Shown in pieces: positions 22,034 to 55,546 of a DNA stretch of 64,000 bases (the stretch's first letter is position 1; every line of letters begins with the position of its first letter). The DNA is taken from NCBI GenBank assembly GCA_000004985.1, contig GG738870.1. The stretch is one strand, 5' to 3'. The DNA is from Naegleria gruberi. Lineage: Eukaryota. The position numbers and the translations under genes are program-made. A model generated the notes under the pieces. It was not told the origin of the DNA, did no database searches, and was given only the letters and a program-made list of their open reading frames with translations.

Positions 22034-22316
22034 TTGTAATTAGCGCTAAATTAAAATACAACACAACCCTTCTTCATTTGGAAGCCTCATAAACCGAATC
22101 AGTTAGTGGCTTTCTCCACAATTTTTGAATTGATGCCAGATCGTGAGATGAAATTTTAAGGATTTGGCACTTGAAAAGATTTCAAAGTTGGCTCAATCTT
22201 CAGCTAATTATCAAAAGATTGTTGTTTGATTTCTTCTAGAAAACCCAATTTTTTTAAAGATAACAACTGTTGGTCTACTTATTCTATGCAATTTTTTAAA
22301 AGATATTAACGTGAAG

Positions 22317-22388
22317 GGACCATGGTCTAGTGGTATGATTCTCGCTTTGGGTGCGAGAGGCCGTGGGTTCGATTCCCACTGGTCCCCG
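22317..22388 (+). tRNA. tRNA-Pro (anticodon UGG)
   Basis: 72-nt cloverleaf. Acceptor GGGACCA pairs with TGGTCCC. The D-arm and anticodon arm are TGATTCTCGC-TTTGGGT-GCGAG, and the loop TTTGGGT places TGG at positions 34-36. The T-arm reads GTGGG-TTCGATT-CCCAC and the discriminator is C. A T-rich stretch (CATTTTATTTTG) follows at 22392..22403 as a Pol III terminator. No CCA is encoded. Confidence 0.9.
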
Positions 22389-24183: not shown

Positions 24184-25430
24184 ATGAGTTCTGTTCGGTC
24201 CTATCCAATTAATGGAGGTGTTGGTGAGCAGGATTACGTGATTCATCTGACCATTCCTGATAGTGTGCTTTCGAACATTGTACAAAATCCTGACCAATTA
24301 AGTTTGAAATTCACATCGGATCCACTTGATAATGATATTGTAAGTTTATTGACTTGTGATGATTTTAATTGTTGTTGTTATTATTGTTGTAGAAATTCGA
24401 ATTTTCGTTTGGTTCTAACAAGATGGAATTATCAGCAGCATCAAAGAATGAATGTCCTGATCTTTATTGTTTGTCTGATAACAAATTTGAACATATAGGA
24501 ATGATTAAACATCGTGCAAATTTAAATTTGGATATGATGAAAGGGAGGGCTCCTAATCCACCTACTCTCACAAAGTCAGGTTCAAAACAATTTGGAAGTA
24601 AAGGTAGTAATTTAAATATAAGAACAGATAGAAAAAAGATTAGTGCATCATCGGCAAATCCTGATTCCATTGCTGCAAAATTCAGGAGAGATGTAGATTC
24701 ACCTGTAGTAATGAGAAAAACAGTTAGTCAAGCGAGTACATCATCAAATAATGAACAACAATCATCAAAACAAACAGAAAAAGTATCAAATAGTCAGTCA
24801 TCATCACAAGCATCAAATGTTATGCCCGAATCACCAAGATCAGATATGGATTCATCACCTATTCGTGGAGATGATTTCGGAAATGATTCTATGCCAGTTT
24901 CACCTTCCAATGAAGAAGAAGTGGAATCTAAGAATGAGTTTGATAGAACAAGTTATCCTCACAAACCACCTGTAAAAGCTAGACCTACAAGTAGTACATA
25001 TACAGTTAAAGTAGGAACAAAACAATTGCAAGCATTTAGTTTATTAACTGTTGCTATTGGTAGTGGAATTACTATTGGAGATACAACTGTAAAGCGACCT
25101 AACATTTCAAAAATTGAAACTTTTGAACAATATAACCAATACAAGAAGGAATTTAATGAGAACTACAAAAAATACAAGGAATTGGATAAAATACTGAATG
25201 ATAATGTAGAATACTTTAAGGGTTTAGCTAGTGAATGGAAAACACTTCCAAATGATGAAAAGACTGAATCCAACAATGAGATACAAAAACTATTTAACAG
25301 AAGAAAAACTGATGTTCAAACACTTACAAAAAAGTTTAACGCTATGCATGAAGAGTTAGATTGCATAAAGAAACTTTTGTTGGAATATGCCACTAGAAAT
25401 GCATCCAATGGAAAATCGAATGACATATAA
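24184..25430 (+). CDS. hypothetical protein: N-terminal beta-rich region, Ser-rich linker, C-terminal coiled coil (weak EAF-family resemblance)
   Basis: Exons 24184..24339 and 24393..25430. Intron 24340..24392 (GTAAGT..TTGTAG) is in frame. No confident domain assignment. Confidence 0.4.
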
Positions 25431-25498: not shown

Positions 25499-26377
25499 TT
25501 ATCCATTAGGTTTAACTGCACAGTTAGAAATCAAGTGAGAGAGTTCACTTTCTGGTTGACAGAGAGAAACTTTGCTCAAGACTTCTCTCATTTGTTCAGC
25601 CAAATATTGTGCCATTGCTTTTCTAATTTGGAAGTAGCTGTGGGAAAGCGTCTGCAATTGTTTCACTCTCTTCCTTTCCAAAACCTCAAAGTGAGTCAGA
25701 ATATTGTAAACACTTCTGTCAACTTTTTGAATCAGTTCTTCTTGAGTTTTGATAACTTGCTTATCCTCGGCAATATAGGTTTCTAAATTCTTGACCTCAA
25801 AATCAATTTTTGTCTTTTCAGCTATTGAGGTGAGTGGAGCACTTTTAATTTCCTGCAACTTTTTCGATCGTTCGGCGCATCTCTTTCTCAATTTATCTAA
25901 TTCTTTAAGAGAGCTTGTTTTTTGTGCTTCCAAAATTTTAAACTCTGATTTTCCAGCCTTTGTGAGATCTTTAATTGTTTGAACAAGAACTCCAACTTTT
26001 TGGTATAAATCATCCAATGCAGAACACGGAGTGAATGGATCCTTAGTGAGTGTAGTCATTCCTATGCACATTTTGTGAACAATATTTACATCTTCTGGAG
26101 GGTTTTTGTGCAGGTTTGTATTTGTGGTAAAGGCCTCTACACTTGTCAGTGTTGCCTTATTCATTGTTCTATAATATTCCGAAGTTTTCTTAATTGCTTT
26201 TCCAAAACTTTCCACCTCCTCTGCGTTCTTCTTTAATAAACTCAATACATCAGGAACATTATTAATTAACCTCATTGAAAATTTCGATTCTCCTCTCAGC
26301 TCATCCGAAGGAGAATTGCCCAATATTAAACCAACATCAACAACAAGAGGTGCTTGTTTCGATACTATACCACCCAT
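25499..26377 (-). CDS. N-myristoylation-motif (MGGIVSK) coiled-coil protein; paralogue of the N-terminal half of the adjacent divergent gene
   Basis: ATG at 26377..26375. Met-Gly-Gly-Ile-Val-Ser-Lys fits the N-myristoylation consensus (Gly2, Ser6). About 290 aa of predicted helix. Segments ...DPFTPCSALDDLYQKVGVLVQTIKDL and ...ILTHFEVLERKRVKQLQTLSHSYFQ each have counterparts in gene 26558..28892. Confidence 0.55.
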   Translation of the reverse strand: MGGIVSKQAPLVVDVGLILGNSPSDELRGESKFSMRLINNVPDVLSLLKKNAEEVESFGKAIKKTSEYYRTMNKATLTSVEAFTTNTNLHKNPPEDVNIVHKMCIGMTTLTKDPFTPCSALDDLYQKVGVLVQTIKDLTKAGKSEFKILEAQKTSSLKELDKLRKRCAERSKKLQEIKSAPLTSIAEKTKIDFEVKNLETYIAEDKQVIKTQEELIQKVDRSVYNILTHFEVLERKRVKQLQTLSHSYFQIRKAMAQYLAEQMREVLSKVSLCQPESELSHLISNCAVKPNG

Positions 26378-26557
26378 CTTTCTCTATGATGATGATGATT
26401 TCATTCAGTGATGGAAGATGATTTTAGAAAGGTATTGTGATGGTTTTTTTTCGTTTTGGGCGCAGTATATACTACAACGAATGCCTTATCGCACTCAACA
26501 CATGTCTTTTTAGCCCGAATAAAAAAGCACAACCAACAATACAACAATAACATCATC
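26378..26557. promoter_or_regulatory. 180-bp bidirectional promoter region between two divergently transcribed paralogues
   Basis: Lies between the ATGs of the minus-strand gene (26377) and the plus-strand gene (26558). Both genes encode MGGIV(A)SK N-termini. Confidence 0.5.
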
Positions 26558-28892
26558 ATGGGAGGCATTGTAGCATCGAAACCGACTATTAATCTCTCAG
26601 AGGAACCTCTCACTACACTAGTGGATCCAACCTTCCCGAAATTGTTGTTTGATCACTTTGATAAGGTTACTGATTTTTTCAATGATAAGATTGCTGAAGT
26701 TGAATGTTTTGAAAAAGTAGTGGAGAATTACTCTCATTACTATCACAATATTTATGATATTCATTCTTTTAAAAAAAAGTTGCAGTAAGTGGGTAATATT
26801 GAGGAAATTTAATGACTAATTTGTTTGAATTAGAAAAACCGAAAATGTTCCATCACATTTGGATATTTGCCGTAAGGTTGCTCAAGGATTCGAAGATTGT
26901 GGAAAGGATTATTATAAAATTTATGAAGATTTGGATTCCATTTTGACAAAAATTAGGTTGTTGAAAATAACATTAAAGGAATATGTAAATAGTGCAAAAG
27001 TTGAGGAAACAAATTTGAATTATGAACTGGAAAATGCTAACAAGGATGTTGAAAATTCAAAATTAAAAGAAACCAAATTAACATTATCAGTAATTGAGGC
27101 CCAATCTGAGAACGACCAACCTAAGGTTGACCGACTTCAAATTCAATTGAAACAAGCAAATTCTGACACTGAAAGTTTTGAAAAAACTTTTGAAACTATC
27201 AACAATCAAAGAAAGAGGAAACTAACCAACATTCTGACTCATCTTGAAATAATGGAAAAGAAGAGGTTTATAGAGCTCAAAGAACTAGCTTCGAATTTCT
27301 CAAAAGTACAATTCGATGTTCTTGAATTTGAATCCCATACAACTGAAACATGTGAAAAAGGAATTGATGATATTTCAGAAGAATCAGAAATTAAATATTT
27401 CATTGCAAAATGTACAAAGGGAGATATTAATCAAATCAAAGATGATGTTCCAACTCCAAAAATTCAAATTGCACAGATAGCCTATTTTAACAAAATTCTT
27501 TCTGACCCAGAGGATCCAGACAAGGTTGATTTGGGTGTTTGGCTGAAAAACTCTAGTGACAAAGTTAAAGAGGAAATTGAATCAAGCAAACCCTTTACTG
27601 ACTCTGAATTTCCACCAAATCACAATTCCGTCGTGGGTTTACAAACAATTACGAAGAGATTAGATTTAACCTGGAAGAGAGCTACTGATGTCTACAAGCA
27701 ACTAAAATTTGGAGAGTTTTCACCAGACAATATAGCTCCAAGGAAAGGTGACTCATGGTTACTTTCATATCTGTACTGTATTGCCCAAAAACCAGAATTG
27801 GTTTCAAAATTATTTTCAGTCAACGAACTTAACACTGCAGGAATTTATGAGGTAAATTTATGTGTTGGTGGAGAGTTTACTAAGGTAATTATCGATGACC
27901 ACTTCCCTTTCGATAAAGATAATGTTCCACACTTTGGTGCAAGCAAGAAGGAAGAGCTTTGGGTACCTCTAGTAGTGAAAGCTTTTGCAAAGGCAGTTGG
28001 ATGTTTTTTGAAATTGGAGGCAAACTTTTATTATCTTGGATTTCAAGTACTCACCGGTTATCCAAATTATGACATTATATTCAATGATACAAACTCAAAG
28101 AAACCTTCCTTCCTTGATGCCTGTTGGACAGCAGTTAACCAAGCACCAAAGAAGGGTTATTTGATTAATTGTTTCTCAAGATTTGATGTTGATAAGGGAT
28201 TAGATCCATCAGCTTCTTATATAGTTCTTGACAGTTATTCAAAAGACGATGTTAAATTACTTCAACTTGCAAACCCATGGAAATCAACTCAATGGAATGG
28301 GGATTGGAATGATTCAGATCCAATGTGGACAGAAGAGATGAAGTCTTTAGTTAGTTTCAAGCAAGATAACGAACGATCTTTCTGCATGGCATTCTCTGAC
28401 TTTGTCAAGTGTTTCTCTCATATTAATATTTGTAGATACAATCCTTCATTGAAAAGAAAAACACTTTCAGTTCGAGTTCAGCAATTAGAAAATAATGTGG
28501 AGAACGAATATCCGGTCATTGAGTTCAGTTTCTCAACAGATTCAAATGAATGCTACTTTGGAATTCACCAACTTCACACAATATTTAAGGATGCACCATT
28601 CTCAAATTCAGTTATGGGATTTGTAGTTGTAAATAAGGAGCAAGCCAAAGAAGTTACCAAGTTCATTACAACAACCACTGAGAAGGAGTATTCATTACAA
28701 AAGAATTTGAAAGCAAACACAGTTTATCAGTTAGTCCCTCTACTGTTCCAAAAATTGGCAGATCTTAAAAAGATAGTGATAAGTGTTCAGCAAGCAGACG
28801 AAAAGTTTAGTTGGAAATTGCTAGAAAAATCTCAAGTTATTATTGGCAAGCAAGAAATGACAAAAGCCCAGTTAAAAAAGATGGTTTATTGA
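26558..28892 (+). CDS. calpain-like protein: N-myristoylation motif and coiled-coil N-terminal half fused to a CysPc-type calpain domain that lacks the catalytic Cys and His
   Basis: Exons 26558..26784 and 26834..28892. Intron 26785..26833 (GTAAGT..ATTAG) is in frame. N-terminus MGGIVASK. Calpain domain markers: FTDSEFPPNHNSV (compare FvDpeFpp), GDSWLLS in place of the GDCWLL active-site Cys, ...EVNLCVGGEFTKVIIDDHFP, ...ELWVPLVVKAFAK, SASYIV in place of GHAYSV (His lost), and LANPWKSTQWNGDWNDSDPMW (Asn/NPWG retained). Confidence 0.7.
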
Positions 28893-31837
28893 AGAGAGTA
28901 CTTCTCTTTCTCTGCTAGCAGTCTCAATTTTTCAGCAAATTCCTTTTCCAATTCCAATCTTCGTTCTTCTAATTCACATAACACTTGCAATACATCATTA
29001 TTTTCATAGCTGGTATTGGAATCAACAAAAGATTTCATGAGCATTACCTTTTTGTCTTGCTCTATGACAGCCATTTTTTGATCTTCATACTTTTGTAATG
29101 CAAAAGTTCTCCTAGGTTTGACAATAAAATCATTTTCAGTAAAGCTAGAGCTAATGCCTAAATCATCTCTTGTTCTCTTCTTTTCATGAATTGATCCTCT
29201 GTTCAGTAAATAATTACTGAAACCATCAATAGAAGATTCCAAACGTTCTTGCTTATTAAATTCATAGGTTTGAGGATTGTTTTGAACTATGGCTTGTTCA
29301 ACAAGTAACTTGTTGTAGTATTTACCAATCTTGATAACATAGTTCTTCAACTTTTTGAATGCCAAGGTCATGAATTCTGGTGAATTATCAGTTAGTAAAG
29401 AGTCACCAATGTCTAGCACTTTGTAATCTTCAAAGTAAAAATCTTGTGTTACAGCTGTGAAATTCTTTCTCATATTTGATACATAAGGTTCCATACGATG
29501 CTTCTCCATATCATTCTTAGTGTAGTACAATAAACAGTACAAGTAAACACCAGCCATAAAACATGGAACAAGTTCCTTAACCTCCAAATAGTACAAAATA
29601 TAATTGATATCGTTGGTAAGGAAAACCTCTTTCAAATTAATTTGAACATTTCCAACGAGTGTGCCCACAGTTACAGGGGTGCCATCAAAGGCCAGATTCA
29701 TCAATGCCTCCAAAGTATCAATATTAATTGGAATATTACTCTTACTTTCAACAATTGAAAAATAGCCCCTAGAATAAATCAAACCAAGAAGAACAGCCAA
29801 ATAACTTGGATGCTCATTGACTATTGGTTCATAATTCAACCATCTTTCTATTGAGGATTTGGCCAAATTTTTTACAACTGATTCATTGAATTTTAAGAGG
29901 TCAAATCCATCCTCCTCTTCAATCTTTGGTGTTTGGATAGGTTGACTTGGTGACTTTTGATTGGTTTTCTCAGAAACTACATCAGAAGTTTCATCCATAG
30001 CCGAACTGCTTGGAGTAAAGTTGTTGACAACATTTTTAATGTCTTTCATGACATCTAATGGTTGTGTGACAACAGCGTCTGCAGCATCTTGAACACTTGT
30101 ACAAAATCTTGTAATAGGTTGATAATGTGAGTGAAGTAAATCATCCAACTTGAGAATGGAATGATTATTCAAAAAGTCATGATATTCAATTGGTTTAGAA
30201 ACATCACAAATAACAGGTTCTCTAATGAGAGGAAGTTTCTCACGACCTGCCTTCTTTCTAAAACCAAATCTAACTTCTTGAACAAAGGCCTTATCGAATT
30301 GAGCTGTTTCATCAGCAGTTACACCAAAGAATGAATTACCAGATTGTTTCAAAAAGCTTTCCTTGTTCATTCTGTAGGCAATAATGAAACCACAATGTTT
30401 CACTAAATCAGCACTGCACTTTCTACCATAAGTTCCAATAGCAATTTGTGCACTGTAATCTTGTGGATTGACTGATTGTGAGTAGAATGTTTCCAAATGT
30501 GTTAAAACTTCTCTCTTTTTTGATGAATTTTCACAGAATACTACAAATCCAAAAATTGCAATTTCATTCAAATTAAGTTTTGGAATGAGTTTTTCAATTT
30601 CATTGCATTGATACATTCTATTTTGTGTCATTTGGAAAATTGAATTTGTAGGATTTTGATTCAAGAAGAGTTTCAATGTTACTTTTGCAGTTTGAACATT
30701 GTAACATACAGGAAAACCTGCGCGTTGTTGATTAATTTTACCATTTAAAGTTGCTTTAGAAACTGCAGTTGGAGGATAGGCACTCATTGAAGCACTTGAA
30801 GAAAAGAAGGAGGAGAAAACATTTGGTTGTAAATGTTGTTGAGAATATGAATGGGTTGTTTGATCAACATTTTGTTGCATTAAATTATTTCCTGACAGTA
30901 ACAAAATTGGATTGTCATTATAATTATTTGTTGCATTTGATTTATCTTGAAGAAGTGAATTAATTGATTGTGGAGGAAGCATTTGTGTGGAGGATGAATT
31001 TGAAGAAGGAGGTGATGATGAAAGATTTGAATGTTGAGGTGTTTGCACCAATGTGACAGTATTCATCAATTGAGTTAATTGATCAGGAGTTAAACCATTT
31101 GGTGATCCATAATTACCTAAATTAGGACTTGTAGAATTAACTGGTGATGGTGTATTCAAGTGATTTGGTGAATAGTTTGGATAAAAATCAAAAGTACTAT
31201 TGTAATTATTGTAATTATTATTATTTAAACTATTTAAAGCTTGATGATTCAAATTAAATTGAATATTTTGTATCAATGATGACAAATTATTGTTATTATT
31301 ATTAGGATAATCAGTTAATTGTTGTTGTTGTTGTTGTAATAATTGATAAATAGCATTAGTATTATAAATAGTAGTATTATGATGATGTGGTTGAGTAGTA
31401 CCACCAACAGCACCAGTATTATACATTGATTGTGCTTGCTGTTGTTGAATGGTATGATTATTAGGTTGACCACCATTAATCATCATATTCGAATTATTAG
31501 TAACAGTAGTAGTAGCAGTAGTATTATTGGATACTACTAGGGAAGGTGATGATGAAATCATTCCTCCAACAATACCAACACCACTACTTCCCACCACTGA
31601 TGATGATGGTGCTGATGATGATGATGATGGAGTGTTTGCTGACGATGATGATGATGGTGTAGTATTGCTCATAACAATGTTATTAGTAAGTACTGCTGCA
31701 GTTGTATTATTATTATGATGATGATTAGTACCTCCAGAATTCAAAACAACGTGATGAGGTATAACAGTTTGTGTTGTTAATGAGGATGGTGGTCGTTGAG
31801 TTTGATTTGAAGTAGTGGCTGTGGGTGGTTGATTCAT
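28886..31837 (-). CDS. Q/N/S/T-rich low-complexity protein with a structured C-terminal 550 aa; function unknown
   Basis: ATG at 31837..31835. The N-terminal 430 aa are homopolymer-rich (polyQ, polyN, polyS, HHHNNN). The C-terminal part has no assignable domain. Its 3' end overlaps the 3' end of the convergent calpain-like gene by 7 nt (28886..28892). Confidence 0.5.
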   Translation of the reverse strand: MNQPPTATTSNQTQRPPSSLTTQTVIPHHVVLNSGGTNHHHNNNTTAAVLTNNIVMSNTTPSSSSSANTPSSSSSAPSSSVVGSSGVGIVGGMISSSPSLVVSNNTTATTTVTNNSNMMINGGQPNNHTIQQQQAQSMYNTGAVGGTTQPHHHNTTIYNTNAIYQLLQQQQQQLTDYPNNNNNNLSSLIQNIQFNLNHQALNSLNNNNYNNYNSTFDFYPNYSPNHLNTPSPVNSTSPNLGNYGSPNGLTPDQLTQLMNTVTLVQTPQHSNLSSSPPSSNSSSTQMLPPQSINSLLQDKSNATNNYNDNPILLLSGNNLMQQNVDQTTHSYSQQHLQPNVFSSFFSSSASMSAYPPTAVSKATLNGKINQQRAGFPVCYNVQTAKVTLKLFLNQNPTNSIFQMTQNRMYQCNEIEKLIPKLNLNEIAIFGFVVFCENSSKKREVLTHLETFYSQSVNPQDYSAQIAIGTYGRKCSADLVKHCGFIIAYRMNKESFLKQSGNSFFGVTADETAQFDKAFVQEVRFGFRKKAGREKLPLIREPVICDVSKPIEYHDFLNNHSILKLDDLLHSHYQPITRFCTSVQDAADAVVTQPLDVMKDIKNVVNNFTPSSSAMDETSDVVSEKTNQKSPSQPIQTPKIEEEDGFDLLKFNESVVKNLAKSSIERWLNYEPIVNEHPSYLAVLLGLIYSRGYFSIVESKSNIPINIDTLEALMNLAFDGTPVTVGTLVGNVQINLKEVFLTNDINYILYYLEVKELVPCFMAGVYLYCLLYYTKNDMEKHRMEPYVSNMRKNFTAVTQDFYFEDYKVLDIGDSLLTDNSPEFMTLAFKKLKNYVIKIGKYYNKLLVEQAIVQNNPQTYEFNKQERLESSIDGFSNYLLNRGSIHEKKRTRDDLGISSSFTENDFIVKPRRTFALQKYEDQKMAVIEQDKKVMLMKSFVDSNTSYENNDVLQVLCELEERRLELEKEFAEKLRLLAEKEKYSLQ

Positions 31838-52613: not shown

Positions 52614-53969
52614 TTATTTCTTATTGATTTGATTCAAAATTCTATTTGCATTTTCATGTCCTGCCTCAGCTGCCTTTGTTATCCATTCAAGAGCTTTTCT
52701 ATCGTTTCTTGGAGTACCCTTACCTTGAGCACACAAACATCCAACATTATATTGTGCATCGACATAGTCATTTTCAGCTGATTTCAGATACCATTCGTAT
52801 GCCTTATCAAGGTCTTCCCTTTCTGCATAAATTGCTCCCACATTATATTGAGCTACTGGATTTTCTGAGACTTGAGAATACCATTCGAGTGATTTGTCCA
52901 AGTTTCTTTCAACCCCCATTCCCTCCTGATAGATGAAGCCAATATTAAAGATGGATTGTGGTGATTGTCCACTGTGAGCAGCATTCAGGAATAACTCCAA
53001 ACTCTTCTTGTAATCTTTTTCTACGCCTAAACCAAATAAGTACATTTCTCCAAGAAATTCCTGAGCTAATGGATGACCCTGATTGCTTGCGTTATTCAAA
53101 TGTTCAAGAGATTTTTCAGTATTTGTTTCAATACCATTACCATAGTGATACATGAGACCGAGTTGGAACTGTGATTCTGCATCTCCATTCTTTGTAAACC
53201 AATCAAATGCTTGTTTTGGATCCTTTTCAACACCTTGCCCATGTAAAAGCATGAATGCAACAGTAGATTGTGATTCAGGTACACCATTTTGAGCTGCTTT
53301 AGAATGCCATTCATAAGACTTGACATAATCTTGTTCACATCCGGTACCATAATAGTACATGAATCCTAATTGTTGCTGAGCTTTGGCATGTCCTATTTCG
53401 CCAGCTTTTGTAAAATTCTCAATTGCATTTTCAAAATTTTGACTTGTTCCTCTTCCATTATAAAAAGCTAATCCAACATTAAACAAAGCATCCCTAACTC
53501 CCTTCTTTGAAGATTTTAAATACCAGTCAAATGCCTTCTCCAACTCTCCTTTGCTTTCATAAATATATCCAAGATAACATTCAGCTTCCAAATAATTTAA
53601 TTCATGTAATTTCTCAAAATATTCAAGTGATTTATCCAAATCTTGTGCGAATTCTTCTCCCAATCCAAGCAAGTACATATTTCCCAACATGAATAAAGCA
53701 TCCACATTATTATCACGAGCTGATAGTTCAAATAATTCTTTGGCTTTCGGAATTTGATTCTGACGTAATAACAATAAACCTTGTTGATAGGCTTGGATAT
53801 GATTTTGAATATTTTCATTATTCGCTTGTCCTGATTGATTATTATTCTTCTGATTGATGTGAAAGCTTCGGAGTGATGAAATTGTTTTTCCACAGGTAAA
53901 AGGTATCAAAAATCCATTCTTTCTATGATGATGGATTGAAAATATTGCCCTTGTGATCAATTTGTTCAT
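52614..53969 (-). CDS. Sel1-like repeat (SLR) protein, possible mitochondrial presequence
   Basis: ATG at 53969. At least nine tandem repeats of about 36 aa follow the Sel1 pattern (A...LG.MY..G.GVE.D..KA..W..KAA..G...AQ). Confidence 0.7.
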   Translation of the reverse strand: MNKLITRAIFSIHHHRKNGFLIPFTCGKTISSLRSFHINQKNNNQSGQANNENIQNHIQAYQQGLLLLRQNQIPKAKELFELSARDNNVDALFMLGNMYLLGLGEEFAQDLDKSLEYFEKLHELNYLEAECYLGYIYESKGELEKAFDWYLKSSKKGVRDALFNVGLAFYNGRGTSQNFENAIENFTKAGEIGHAKAQQQLGFMYYYGTGCEQDYVKSYEWHSKAAQNGVPESQSTVAFMLLHGQGVEKDPKQAFDWFTKNGDAESQFQLGLMYHYGNGIETNTEKSLEHLNNASNQGHPLAQEFLGEMYLFGLGVEKDYKKSLELFLNAAHSGQSPQSIFNIGFIYQEGMGVERNLDKSLEWYSQVSENPVAQYNVGAIYAEREDLDKAYEWYLKSAENDYVDAQYNVGCLCAQGKGTPRNDRKALEWITKAAEAGHENANRILNQINKK

Positions 53970-54049: not shown

Positions 54050-55381
54050 TTAAAATATGAAAGAAATATCTGATAATGGTTTGCAGTTTGAACTTTTAAG
54101 AGATGATTTGAAATTGTCAGCTGTTGAGCCATCAAAAAGCTTGTCATCTCTGTAAAATATTGTGTGCATTCCTCCACAAGCAACTGAGTTAATGTGAAGA
54201 TCTTGATGCTTACTAAAGTCAATTCTCTCAAATGTTGATAGCTTATTTAGGGATGAAATCACATTACCAGAATTTCTGAAACCTCTTCCAGTTCCAAACA
54301 TTACATTTCTATTCTTTTTAGAAATAGCAATAGTGTAATTATCTCCCAAGAAAACATCCCCAATAAATGTATCATGAATGTAAACTTGTGTGAATTTGTA
54401 ATATGTATTAATGGTTGGTAATCCAAGTTGTAGCTCAGAATTCTTTCCTGTCATGAACAATTCACCATCGACTGTCAATACAGCACTGTGCTTTTCACCA
54501 CATACAACTTTTGCAATTCGTGAGGTAGAAGGTATGTCAATCTGCTTAAATTCATTGAGAATAACTACATCTTTACCTGCTCCAGCCATTCCATTTCTAT
54601 TGGATCCGATAGCAAAGAGACGATCTCCCTTCTCATCGCTAACAACTATCAATGAATGATCTTCACCAAATGCCCATTGAGTAATCTTCTCTGATGGTTG
54701 AATAAACTTCTCCATTCCCTTCATTCTTCTAAAAATGTTAATATTATTGTTGTGATGTTGAGCTCTTTCAACACCCAACTCATCAAAATTATTCTTTCCA
54801 GTGCAATAGACATTTCCACTCTCACAAATCAAAGCAGTATGATCAAAACCACAAACAACCTTCGCAATAACTTCATCATTTCCATCATCTTGTTTTAATA
54901 GCTTTAAAGGAACTGGATTAGGAATTGTAACCTCAATCCAATTTTTCAATCCAGATTGGCCATTACAATTATCACCCCATGCAGATAACTTATTATCCTT
55001 AGACAAAGCCATTGTAAAATTAGAACCACATTCAATTGCTTTAATCGAACCTAAACATTTAAAATCCCTAATAACTTTCAAATCAAATGATTGCATTGTA
55101 TTAATGGATTGAGCCAATTGTCCCGAATTATTAGACCCTGATGAGAGAATACAATATTGACTATCACTCTTACTATCCCTTCCCACTACAATGGTATGAA
55201 AGTATCCAGTACGAATACATTCAAGGGAGAAACCACTCGGGAGGGAAACTCTAGCCATCTGATCTAATTTTCTAATCATTGAATCACCAGTTGCTAACTG
55301 ACCAAATTCATTATTACCAAATGAAAGAAAACAAGATCTTTGAGCATCTTGATTGTAGTGGCAGTTATTGCTTGAGGACAT
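54050..55381 (-). CDS. RCC1-repeat protein (second copy in this window)
   Basis: ATG at 55381 (MSSSNNCHY...). Repeated blades of the type FGNNEFGQLATG, SGSNNSGQLAQS, WGDNCNGQSGL, GSNRNGMAGAG, GKNSELQLGLP and CGGMHT. Confidence 0.7.
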   Translation of the reverse strand: MSSSNNCHYNQDAQRSCFLSFGNNEFGQLATGDSMIRKLDQMARVSLPSGFSLECIRTGYFHTIVVGRDSKSDSQYCILSSGSNNSGQLAQSINTMQSFDLKVIRDFKCLGSIKAIECGSNFTMALSKDNKLSAWGDNCNGQSGLKNWIEVTIPNPVPLKLLKQDDGNDEVIAKVVCGFDHTALICESGNVYCTGKNNFDELGVERAQHHNNNINIFRRMKGMEKFIQPSEKITQWAFGEDHSLIVVSDEKGDRLFAIGSNRNGMAGAGKDVVILNEFKQIDIPSTSRIAKVVCGEKHSAVLTVDGELFMTGKNSELQLGLPTINTYYKFTQVYIHDTFIGDVFLGDNYTIAISKKNRNVMFGTGRGFRNSGNVISSLNKLSTFERIDFSKHQDLHINSVACGGMHTIFYRDDKLFDGSTADNFKSSLKSSNCKPLSDISFIF

Positions 55382-55546
55382 TTTTTTGTGTTTTCTTAGT
55401 TTCAAATTTGAGAACAGTGAACTCTTTGAAAATGTTGCGTATTTTACGAATGAACAATGAAATGTTGATGATTTTAAGATGATTGATTGTTGTAGAAACT
55501 TTCTGTTGAGTATGTTAGATGTGATGAGGAAAGATTGAACAATTTA

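What the first reader, a model, noticed from the sequence alone, without database searches (positions are those of the whole stretch)
25499..28892. Head-to-head paralogue pair with N-myristoylation motifs, one fused to a catalytically dead calpain domain
Two divergently transcribed genes share a 180-bp promoter. Both begin MGGIV(A)SK, which fits the N-myristoylation consensus. Both encode homologous helical domains of about 250 aa (DPFTPCSALDDLYQKVGVLVQTIKDL versus GKDYYKIYEDLDSILTKIRLLKITLKE; THFEVLERKRVKQLQ versus THLEIMEKKRFIELK). The plus-strand copy continues into a calpain CysPc domain in which the nucleophile Cys is Ser (GDSWLL) and the His is lost (SASYIV for GHAYSV), while the Asn/NPWG region is kept. 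This looks like a membrane-targeted pseudoprotease or scaffold plus its stand-alone N-domain paralogue, and it suggests a local duplication followed by domain fusion or loss. The N-terminal domain itself has no family I can name.
Basis: partly seen in the sequence, partly recalled or inferred. Interest (0 to 1): 0.6.

Follow-up and report, generated by a model that had tools for sequence, protein, structure and literature searches.

The report
Lipid-anchored F-BAR pair, one with dead calpain
Two back-to-back Naegleria gruberi genes encode membrane-curvature-binding (F-BAR) proteins that probably carry a fatty-acid anchor, and one is fused to a calpain protease module that has lost its catalytic residues; I found no description of this domain combination in two calpain surveys or in the literature searches I ran.

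Summary
The window is Naegleria gruberi.

- **Gene A:** 25499-26377, minus strand, 292 aa, NAEGRDRAFT_79910.
- **Gene B:** 26558-28892, plus strand, one 49-nt intron, 761 aa, NAEGRDRAFT_49404.
- **Arrangement:** the start codons are 180 bp apart and divergent.
- **N-termini:** MGGIVSK and MGGIVASK, and both fit the N-myristoylation pattern.
- **Shared domain:** the N-domains are homologous (BLASTP E=5e-15).

Gene B continues into a full CysPc domain (Pfam E=2.4e-48) with Cys->Ser, His->Ala and Asn kept. A calpain-type beta-sandwich follows it.

The divergent pair is also present in N. fowleri. There the triad reads Asn/Thr/Asn and the core carries a deletion, so the loss of catalysis is old.

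All named members of the family are from Naegleria. It includes paralogues with an intact triad, other dead ones, stand-alone F-BARs and an F-BAR-2xSH3 protein. All except the SH3 form start with Met-Gly.

Lipidation, membrane binding and lack of activity are inferred, not shown. I rate it a new variant of known kinds, of moderate interest.

The parts
25499..26377 (-). Gene A (NAEGRDRAFT_79910, D2VGR8): single-exon CDS of 292 aa. It is a stand-alone F-BAR protein with the N-terminus MGGIVSK. Its F-BAR domain is basic (net +8, pI 9.1).
   Evidence: ORF. Exact match to the GenBank protein. Homology to the gene B N-domain at E=5e-15. N. fowleri orthologue P0016, 288 aa, starts MGGIVSKEP. Charge.
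26378..26557 (.). 180-bp spacer between the two divergent start codons. It must hold both 5' UTRs and the promoter or promoters.
   Evidence: Coordinates. It is 100% identical in a second strain, but that is uninformative at 99.3% overall identity. The equivalent spacer in N. fowleri is 1339 bp with no substantial ORF.
26558..26784 (+). Gene B exon 1 (aa 1-75 plus 2 nt): MGGIVASK and the first F-BAR helix.
   Evidence: The same splice is used in GenBank model P0001. P0003 is this exon as an ORF.
26785..26833 (+). Gene B intron 1, 49 nt, GTAAGT...TTAG.
   Evidence: Splicing restores the reading frame and the alignment to gene A.
26834..28892 (+). Gene B exon 2, including the stop codon: the rest of the F-BAR domain, a linker, CysPc and CBSW. 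The whole protein is 761 aa.
26558..27461 (+). F-BAR domain of gene B (aa 1-285, intron included). Predicted helices are 28-69, 87-167, 171-255 and 258-270. It is acidic (net -12, pI 5.2).
27594..28436 (+). Calpain CysPc domain (aa 330-610) with the triad Ser383 / Ala536 / Asn556 in place of Cys/His/Asn.
   Evidence: Pfam PF00648 at E=2.4e-48 over the full profile. Alignment to calpain-2. Codons at 27753-27755 TCA, 28212-28214 GCT and 28272-28274 AAC.
28443..28889 (+). C-terminal calpain-type beta-sandwich (CBSW, also called domain III or C2-like), aa 613-761.
   Evidence: AlphaFold model with pLDDT 87.6 and pTM 0.84, all-beta. Top Foldseek hits are the calpain-7 C2-like domain 2qfe (5e-5) and m-calpain domain III 1df0/1u5i/1kfx. 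There is no Pfam hit and no PDB sequence hit.
28350..28435 (+). 86-nt segment that the GenBank model (600 aa) treats as an intron. It is probably coding.
   Evidence: Removing it shifts the frame. It also deletes the conserved calpain motif FCMAFSDF..INICRY and the whole CBSW domain, both of which are conserved in paralogues and in N. fowleri.

Best explanation
Genes A and B belong to a family of F-BAR proteins whose named members are all from Naegleria and which start with a Met-Gly N-myristoylation motif.

Gene B has the architecture myrGly, F-BAR, linker, CysPc, CBSW. It is a non-classical calpain with no penta-EF-hand domain, and its catalytic Cys and His are replaced by Ser and Ala. Gene A is the F-BAR module alone.

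Proposed mechanism. After the initiator Met is removed, Gly2 is myristoylated. The F-BAR domain dimerises, which puts two lipid anchors and one curved helical surface on each dimer. The protein then sits on the cytoplasmic face of a curved membrane. The dead CysPc-CBSW module cannot cleave. It acts there as a binding or scaffold module, for example holding calpain-type ligands or competing with the active F-BAR-calpain paralogue. Gene A supplies the same membrane module without cargo, either on its own or as a dimer partner of B.

Shown here: gene structures, homology, domain identities, the triad substitutions, conservation of the pair and of the Met-Gly motif in N. fowleri, and the make-up of the family.

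Inferred: lipidation, dimerisation, membrane binding, lack of proteolysis, and any partnership between A and B.
For: - **Species and gene identity:** (P0001, 100% identity, N. gruberi).
- **Paralogy of A and B:** (E=5e-15).
- **F-BAR by sequence:** a profile of 11 N-domains against PDB sequences gives FBP17 at 1e-9 (profile positions 24-258 against chain 5-252), syndapin at 6e-6, Rgd1 at 1.5e-4 and Syp1 at 1.6e-4.
- **CysPc and triad:**
- **CBSW:**
- **Old loss of catalysis:** the N. fowleri orthologue has Asn/Thr/Asn and a deletion of about 35 aa after the Asn motif. Even so, it keeps an intact ORF, 35% identity in CysPc and 45% in CBSW.
- **Conserved divergent pair and flanking synteny in N. 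fowleri:**
- **Met-Gly motif:** it fits the NMT pattern in 9 of the 10 N-termini tested, and also in the first exon of P0006. These domains are otherwise only 20-35% identical.
- **Same F-BAR on other effectors:** an intact-triad calpain (P0018, P0006), two SH3 domains (P0009/P0020), or nothing (P0013, P0022). This is how F-BAR domains are normally used.
- **Precedents:** a BAR domain plus N-terminal acylation are both needed for membrane binding of Leishmania Flabarin (PMC3785460). Acylated, triad-less calpains act as structural proteins in trypanosomes (PMC7912814).
Against: - No experiment or expression data exists for either gene. No paper mentions the locus tags.
- Pfam's FCH model does not detect the domain.
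- The F-BAR domain of gene B is acidic (net -12). That is unfavourable for the usual electrostatic binding to anionic lipids.
- The structure models are monomers, so dimerisation is untested.
- Whether Naegleria has an N-myristoyltransferase was not checked here.
- Myristate alone binds membranes only weakly.
- Substitutions in the triad do not always abolish activity in calpain homologues (statement in PMC7912814).
Confidence: 0.7

Rival explanations
1. A is a regulator of B. The stand-alone F-BAR protein heterodimerises with the F-BAR-pseudocalpain, and the divergent arrangement keeps their amounts matched. A would set how many calpain modules each dimer carries, or supply the basic membrane-binding face that B lacks. 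This resembles the way the truncated F-BAR paralogue SRGAP2C binds full-length SRGAP2A.
For: - The two genes are adjacent and divergent in two distant Naegleria species.
- In N. gruberi their charges are opposite: A is net +8 (pI 9.1) and B is net -12 (pI 5.2).
- A and B group together in the tree at 72.5% bootstrap.
- F-BAR domains dimerise, and a truncated F-BAR paralogue is known to heterodimerise with its parent (PMC6904453).
Against: - The charge contrast is weak in N. fowleri (0 against -3).
- The spacer is 180 bp here but 1339 bp in N. fowleri, so a shared compact promoter is not conserved.
- The two F-BAR domains are only 22% identical.
- No dimer model or interaction data could be produced.
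Confidence: 0.2
2. Gly2 is not lipidated and the F-BAR-like domain does not bind membrane. It would serve as a dimerising coiled-coil scaffold on the cytoskeleton. The calpain-like part would act as a structural protein, as in trypanosome CAP5.5, where calpain-related proteins organise microtubules.
For: - The F-BAR domain of B is acidic.
- Pfam FCH does not match.
- Trypanosome calpain-related proteins are described as microtubule-stabilising structural proteins (PMC7912814).
Against: - The Met-Gly plus small-residue motif is kept across paralogues that share only 20-35% identity. It is hard to explain that without lipidation.
- The fold matches are specifically F-BAR and not generic coiled coils.
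- By my recollection CAP5.5 is itself acylated. This was not checked in a paper here.
Confidence: 0.12
3. Gene B is still a protease and uses Ser383 as its nucleophile.
For: - A Cys-to-Ser exchange keeps a potential nucleophile, and Asn556 and the NPW motif are retained.
- A review notes that triad substitutions do not always abolish activity (PMC7912814).
Against: - The general base His is replaced by Ala.
- Ser is not conserved: the N. fowleri orthologue has Asn at that site and Thr at the His site. It also has a deletion of about 35 aa in the core.
- Intact C/H/N paralogues exist in the same family (P0018, P0006), so the family can keep the triad when it is needed.
Confidence: 0.04
4. Gene B's calpain part is a decaying remnant with no function of its own, and only the F-BAR part matters.
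For: The catalytic residues have been lost. The N. fowleri orthologue has an extra deletion in CysPc.
Against: - The ORF is intact over more than 430 codons in both species.
- CysPc is 35% and CBSW 45% identical between species, which is more conserved than the F-BAR part at 27%.
- The Pfam profile is matched over its full length in N. gruberi.
Confidence: 0.05

Closest known systems
F-BAR (FCH-BAR/EFC) domain proteins such as FBP17/CIP4, PACSIN/syndapin, Imp2/Cdc15/Hof1, Rgd1 and FCHo2
   Same: - Same fold and the same three long helices plus a short C-terminal helix.
- Detectable sequence-profile similarity.
- The same logic of an N-terminal F-BAR followed by an effector domain. One Naegleria family member even has the classic F-BAR-SH3 layout.
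   Different: - Below the detection limit of Pfam FCH.
- Starts with a conserved Met-Gly myristoylation motif. I found no example of that among F-BAR proteins in the literature search.
- The effector is a calpain module.
- The gene B domain is acidic.
Kinetoplastid calpain-like proteins (CALPs, e.g. [quoted passage not shown]
   Same: - The lineage (Discoba) is related.
- An N-terminal lineage-specific domain occurs both alone (SKCRP) and fused to CysPc-CBSW.
- Most members lack the catalytic triad and are thought to be structural (PMC7912814).
- By my recollection CAP5.5 is N-terminally acylated. This was not checked in a paper here.
   Different: - Their N-domain is DUF1935, which does not match gene A or B (no Pfam hit at E<=1).
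- Here the N-domain is an all-helical F-BAR.
- The resemblance is one of organisation, and common descent of the N-domain is not indicated.
Flabarin (Leishmania and Trypanosoma flagellar BAR protein)
   Same: - A small BAR-superfamily protein with an N-terminal acylation site.
- Membrane binding in vivo needs both the acyl site and the BAR domain (PMC3785460).
- This is the best precedent for gene A.
   Different: - Flabarin is described as a BAR domain related to the arfaptin type, with a palmitoylated Cys4.
- It was not recovered by the exhaustive profile search from this family.
- It has no calpain partner.
Non-peptidase calpain homologues (calpamodulin/CAPN6, androglobin, Drosophila calpain C)
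   Same: A CysPc fold is retained while the Cys and/or His are replaced. 29 of the 267 homologues surveyed are of this kind (PMC4631099).
   Different: None of those carries an F-BAR domain or a lipid anchor. Neither survey of calpain domain architectures lists FCH or BAR (PMC4631099, PMC3563603).
SRGAP2A with its truncated paralogues SRGAP2B and SRGAP2C
   Same: A full-length F-BAR-effector protein exists alongside a paralogue that consists of the F-BAR part only. That paralogue binds the parent through the F-BAR domain (PMC6904453).
   Different: SRGAP2C is a recent truncated copy that lacks the end of the F-BARx domain. Gene A is an old, complete and highly diverged F-BAR, and heterodimerisation is untested here.

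Membership tests
F-BAR domain (BAR superfamily) | Sequence similarity to FCH/EFC domains | tested here: met
   The family profile (A2) against PDB sequences gives FBP17 at 1e-9, syndapin at 6e-6, Rgd1 at 1.5e-4 and Syp1 at 1.6e-4. Pfam's own FCH model gives no hit, however.
F-BAR domain (BAR superfamily) | Fold: an elongated bundle of three long helices with a short C-terminal helix, closer to F-BAR than to classical, N-, I- or SNX-BAR domains | tested here: met
F-BAR domain (BAR superfamily) | Antiparallel homodimer forming a shallow crescent | not testable with these tools
   Only single-chain prediction was available.
F-BAR domain (BAR superfamily) | Basic membrane-binding surface, with binding or tubulation of anionic membranes | tested here: inconclusive
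   Only net charge could be computed. Gene A is +8 (pI 9.1), gene B is -12 (pI 5.2), and the rest of the family ranges from -7 to +6. Surface mapping and lipid binding were not done.
Calpain (MEROPS C2) family | CysPc (Peptidase_C2) domain | tested here: met
   PF00648 at E=2.4e-48, profile positions 1-297 of 297. Calpain-2 1mdw at E=2.6e-25.
Calpain (MEROPS C2) family | Catalytic triad Cys-His-Asn | tested here: not met
   The triad is Ser383/Ala536/Asn556. Gene B is therefore a non-peptidase homologue and should not be filed as a protease.
Calpain (MEROPS C2) family | Calpain-type beta-sandwich (domain III) after CysPc | tested here: met
   Met by fold only. Foldseek gives calpain-7 C2-like 2qfe at 5e-5 and m-calpain domain III. 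There is no Pfam Calpain_III hit.
Classical calpains | C-terminal penta-EF-hand domain | tested here: not met
   The protein ends after the CBSW domain and has no EF-hand hit. It is therefore a non-classical calpain.
N-myristoylated proteins | Gly at position 2, an allowed residue at position 3, a small residue at position 6 and no Pro at position 7 | tested here: met
   MGGIVSK and MGGIVASK both match. So do 9 of the 10 family N-termini tested and the first exon of P0006.
N-myristoylated proteins | Actual attachment of myristate by NMT | not testable with these tools
   This needs metabolic labelling and mass spectrometry. The presence of NMT in Naegleria was not checked.
Kinetoplastid CALP/SKCRP family | DUF1935 (domain I_K) at the N-terminus | tested here: not met
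   No DUF1935 hit at E<=1 for gene A or B. The N-domain is helical F-BAR. The two are analogous in organisation, but A and B are not members.

The most novel reading that the evidence does not exclude
Naegleria has built a modular system in which a myristoylated F-BAR dimer delivers calpain modules to curved membranes. The modules are either active (NAEGRDRAFT_67588 type) or dead (gene B type). The conserved divergent pair A/B would work as a heterodimer: the basic stand-alone F-BAR (A) provides membrane affinity, and the acidic F-BAR-pseudocalpain (B) provides a non-cleaving substrate trap that opposes the active paralogue. This would be an independent, F-BAR-based counterpart of the acylated CALP/SKCRP system of kinetoplastids.
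Probability: 0.15. Interest if true: 0.65.

Novelty: new variant of a known kind. Interest (0 to 1): 0.45.

Why it matters
Calpains are usually recruited to membranes indirectly, through Ca2+, through C2-like domains, or through transmembrane segments as in DEK1. A direct fusion to a curvature-sensing F-BAR domain with a lipid anchor would be a different solution. Two surveys of calpain architectures (41 arrangements in PMC3563603, and PMC4631099) list no such combination.

The family offers natural controls side by side in one organism: active, dead, cargo-free and SH3-bearing versions of the same F-BAR. That makes it a good system for asking what a dead calpain does at a membrane. It also parallels the expanded, mostly inactive, acylated calpains of trypanosomatids, whose function is still debated.

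Orthologues exist in the pathogen N. fowleri. On the practical side, the public gene models for gene B in N. gruberi and for its orthologue in N. fowleri need correction.

Tried and rejected
- **Dictyostelium guess.** I first suspected a dictyostelid and its calpain-like protein Cpl, because of the AT-rich sequence and N/Q tracts. The literature search gave nothing useful, and the protein search showed the window is N. gruberi.
- **Word-indexed protein searches.** These returned almost only self-hits. The family was found only by the exhaustive profile search.
- **DUF1935/SKCRP membership.** No Pfam hit.
- **dN/dS from the second-strain contig L001.** It is 99.3% identical with 34 differences in 5.5 kb, which is too close to be informative. 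The identical 180-bp spacer is likewise uninformative.
- **C-terminal domain profile against PDB sequences.** Only spurious ribosomal L31 hits appeared. The domain was identified by fold instead.
- **AFDB Foldseek search.** This was meant to look for F-BAR-calpain proteins outside Naegleria, but the library was not available.
- **Pairwise scores as a test of whether A is B's closest paralogue.** They do not show it. Only the tree (72.5% bootstrap) and the shared N-terminal peptide suggest it.
- **Mapping FBP17's lipid-binding lysines onto A and B.** I considered doing this from the profile alignment. I dropped it because the alignment is too loose in that helix and the residue list came from memory.
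- **Literature search for the locus tags.** Nothing found.
Full report
**What is there**

The window is AT-rich eukaryotic DNA (about 29-39% G+C in 2-kb windows). It comes from Naegleria gruberi. The plus-strand protein is 100% identical, over 76% of its length, to 'predicted protein [Naegleria gruberi]' (P0001). Both genes have exact or near-exact GenBank entries. Gene A is NAEGRDRAFT_79910 / D2VGR8, and gene B is NAEGRDRAFT_49404 / D2VGR9.

- **Gene A:** an uninterrupted ORF at 26377..25499 on the minus strand, 292 aa.
- **Gene B:** ATG at 26558, exon 1 at 26558-26784, a 49-nt GT..AG intron at 26785-26833, and exon 2 at 26834-28892, giving 761 aa.
- **Spacing:** the start codons are divergent and 180 bp apart.

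The GenBank model of gene B uses the same first intron. It also removes 86 nt (28350-28435), which shifts the frame and gives a 600-aa product. The removed segment and everything after it encode sequence that is conserved in calpains, in five paralogues and in the N. fowleri orthologue. I therefore take the unspliced 761-aa product as correct.

**Check of the observation**

BLASTP of A against B gives E=5e-15 and 22% identity over 286 aa, covering the N-domains end to end. An exhaustive HMMER search of 1.84 billion representative proteins with the A/B N-domain profile found only 14 proteins at E<=1e-3. Thirteen are clearly members of this family, and the weakest (P0015, E=1.4e-4) is an unrelated repetitive sequence. 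The similarity is therefore not generic coiled-coil noise.

Pfam Peptidase_C2 matches gene B aa 330-610 over the whole profile at E=2.4e-48.

Against rat calpain-2 the catalytic positions read as follows:

| Calpain-2 residue | Gene B residue | Motif in gene B |
|---|---|---|
| Cys105 | Ser383 | GDSWLL |
| His262 | Ala536 | SASYIV |
| Asn286 | Asn556 | ANPWK |

An independent assembly of another strain, 99.3% identical, has the same three motifs. The substitutions lie in an uninterrupted ORF that aligns continuously with CysPc.

**The N-domain is an F-BAR domain**

Pfam finds nothing in gene A or in the N-domain of B. I aligned 11 N-domains of the family (A2) and searched PDB sequences with the profile. 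Four of the six best hits are F-BAR domains:

- FBP17 at E=1e-9, aligned over profile positions 24-258 against chain residues 5-252.
- Syndapin at 6e-6.
- Rgd1 at 1.5e-4.
- Syp1 at 1.6e-4.

An AlphaFold model of gene B aa 1-276 built on this alignment is confident (pLDDT 85.6, pTM 0.71). It shows helices 28-69, 87-167, 171-255 and 258-270.

**The C-terminus of gene B**

The region aa 613-761 has no Pfam hit and no PDB sequence hit. It models confidently as a beta-sandwich (pLDDT 87.6). Its best structural matches are the C2-like domain of calpain-7 and domain III of m-calpain.

Gene B therefore has the architecture MetGly, F-BAR, linker, CysPc (Ser/Ala/Asn), CBSW. It has no penta-EF-hand domain.

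**The family**

Cluster look-ups show that all named members are from Naegleria.

| Member | Source | Architecture | Triad | N-terminus |
|---|---|---|---|---|
| P0016 (FDP41_013293) | N. fowleri | orthologue of gene A, 288 aa | none | MGGIVSKEP |
| P0023 (FDP41_013292) | N. fowleri | orthologue of gene B | Asn/Thr/Asn | MGGIVASKN once corrected |
| P0018 (NAEGRDRAFT_67588) | N. gruberi | F-BAR-CysPc-CBSW, 760 aa | Cys/His/Asn intact | MGAVMAK |
| P0006 | metagenome | F-BAR-CysPc-CBSW | intact | MGSGSSK |
| P0025 | N. fowleri | F-BAR-CysPc-CBSW | Ala/Gln/Ser, dead | MGNKATK |
| P0008 | metagenome | F-BAR-CysPc-CBSW | Asn/Gln/Thr, dead | not recovered |
| P0013, P0022 | N. lovaniensis, N. fowleri | stand-alone F-BAR | none | MGNSKS, MGNTSS |
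| P0009/P0020 | N. fowleri | F-BAR plus two SH3 domains | none | MSSSFE |

Nine of the 10 N-termini tested fit the myristoylation pattern, as does the first exon of P0006. The exception is the SH3 form. The domains behind these N-termini are only about 20-35% identical between lineages, so the motif is under selection.

**Conservation of the pair**

In N. fowleri the two orthologues are also adjacent and divergent. The flanking Occludin_ELL-domain gene is the same in both species. A syntaxin-6-like gene also lies beyond it in N. fowleri, but the candidate ORF at the matching position in the window gave no Pfam hit.

The annotated start of the gene B orthologue is nine codons too short. The in-frame upstream ATG gives MGGIVASKN. 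The spacer there is 1339 bp with no substantial ORF, so the tight 180-bp arrangement is specific to N. gruberi.

The gene B orthologues share more identity in CysPc (35%) and CBSW (45%) than in the F-BAR part (27%). This argues that the dead calpain module is maintained by selection.

The catalytic positions carry different residues in the two species (Ser/Ala against Asn/Thr). N. fowleri also has a deletion of about 35 aa after the Asn motif, inside a continuous ORF. Catalysis was therefore lost before the species split, and Ser383 is not a conserved substitute nucleophile.

A neighbour-joining tree groups the A and B lineages at 72.5% bootstrap. Together with the shared MGGIV(A)SK this gives moderate support to a local duplication. 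Pairwise scores alone do not show it. The direction of the event, loss of the calpain part in A or gain in B, is open.

**How it most likely works**

This section is inference. Gly2 is myristoylated, and the F-BAR domain dimerises. The dimer binds the cytoplasmic face of curved membranes through two acyl chains and the helical surface. The CysPc-CBSW module of gene B, which cannot cleave, acts there as a binding or scaffold module. Gene A is the same membrane module without cargo.

There are two precedents:

- Leishmania Flabarin needs both its N-terminal acylation site and its BAR domain for membrane binding, and it tubulates liposomes (PMC3785460).
- Trypanosomatid calpain-related proteins mostly lack the triad and are regarded as structural. 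Their N-terminal DUF1935 domain also occurs alone, as SKCRPs (PMC7912814).

Genes A and B are not members of that kinetoplastid family, because they have no DUF1935. They do repeat its organisation.

One unexplained point is the charge of the two F-BAR domains. That of B is acidic (net -12, pI 5.2) and that of A is basic (net +8, pI 9.1). This suggests, but does not show, an A:B heterodimer of the SRGAP2C:SRGAP2A kind (PMC6904453). The contrast is weak in N. fowleri.

**Novelty**

Both genes are in GenBank as 'predicted protein', and no paper in the library mentions their locus tags. Two surveys of calpain domain architectures do not list FCH or BAR among the partner domains. For Naegleria, the Rawlings survey (PMC4631099) records only TPR-calpains. 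A literature search found no F-BAR protein with an N-terminal myristoylation site.

Dead calpains as such are common: 29 of 267 homologues in PMC4631099. I therefore rate this a new variant of known kinds, that is, a new domain architecture and a small lineage-specific family. It is of moderate interest, and all functional statements are still predictions.

Noticed in passing
window 28350-28435: The GenBank model of gene B (XP_002676760, 600 aa) removes this 86-nt segment as an intron. That shifts the frame and deletes the end of CysPc and the whole CBSW domain. The unspliced ORF is conserved in paralogues and in N. fowleri, so the model is probably wrong.
   Followed up: yes
L003:4661 (minus strand), N. 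fowleri VFQX01000017.1: The N. fowleri orthologue of gene B (FDP41_013292) is annotated from its second Met. The in-frame ATG nine codons upstream restores MGGIVASKN.
   Followed up: yes
P0023/P0011 (N. fowleri orthologue of gene B), after the 'LTNP' motif: A deletion of about 35 aa removes the WG..W..W segment of CysPc that follows the catalytic Asn. It lies in a continuous ORF, so it is real and not a splicing artefact.
   Followed up: partly
P0009/P0020 (N. fowleri FDP41_009000): The same divergent F-BAR domain is fused to two SH3 domains. This is the only family member without Gly2 (it starts MSSSFE).
   Followed up: partly
window 26558-27461 versus 25499-26377: The two F-BAR domains have opposite net charge in N. 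gruberi: gene B is -12 (pI 5.2) and gene A is +8 (pI 9.1). The contrast is much weaker in N. fowleri.
   Followed up: partly
window 28886-31837 (minus strand): A 983-aa ORF rich in N/Q/S/T tracts with no Pfam hit. Its 3' end overlaps the stop codon of gene B by 7 nt, in convergent orientation.
   Followed up: no
window 24423-25430 (plus strand): A 335-aa ORF with an Occludin_ELL domain (E=6e-16), convergent with gene A and 68 bp from its stop. The same neighbour is present in N. fowleri.
   Followed up: partly
window 22316-22387 (plus strand): tRNA-Pro (anticodon TGG), the only tRNA found in the window.
   Followed up: no
window 52614-53969 and 54050-55405 (both minus strand): Two adjacent ORFs of exactly 451 aa each looked like a tandem duplicate. 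They are unrelated: one is a Sel1/TPR repeat protein and the other an RCC1-repeat protein.
   Followed up: yes
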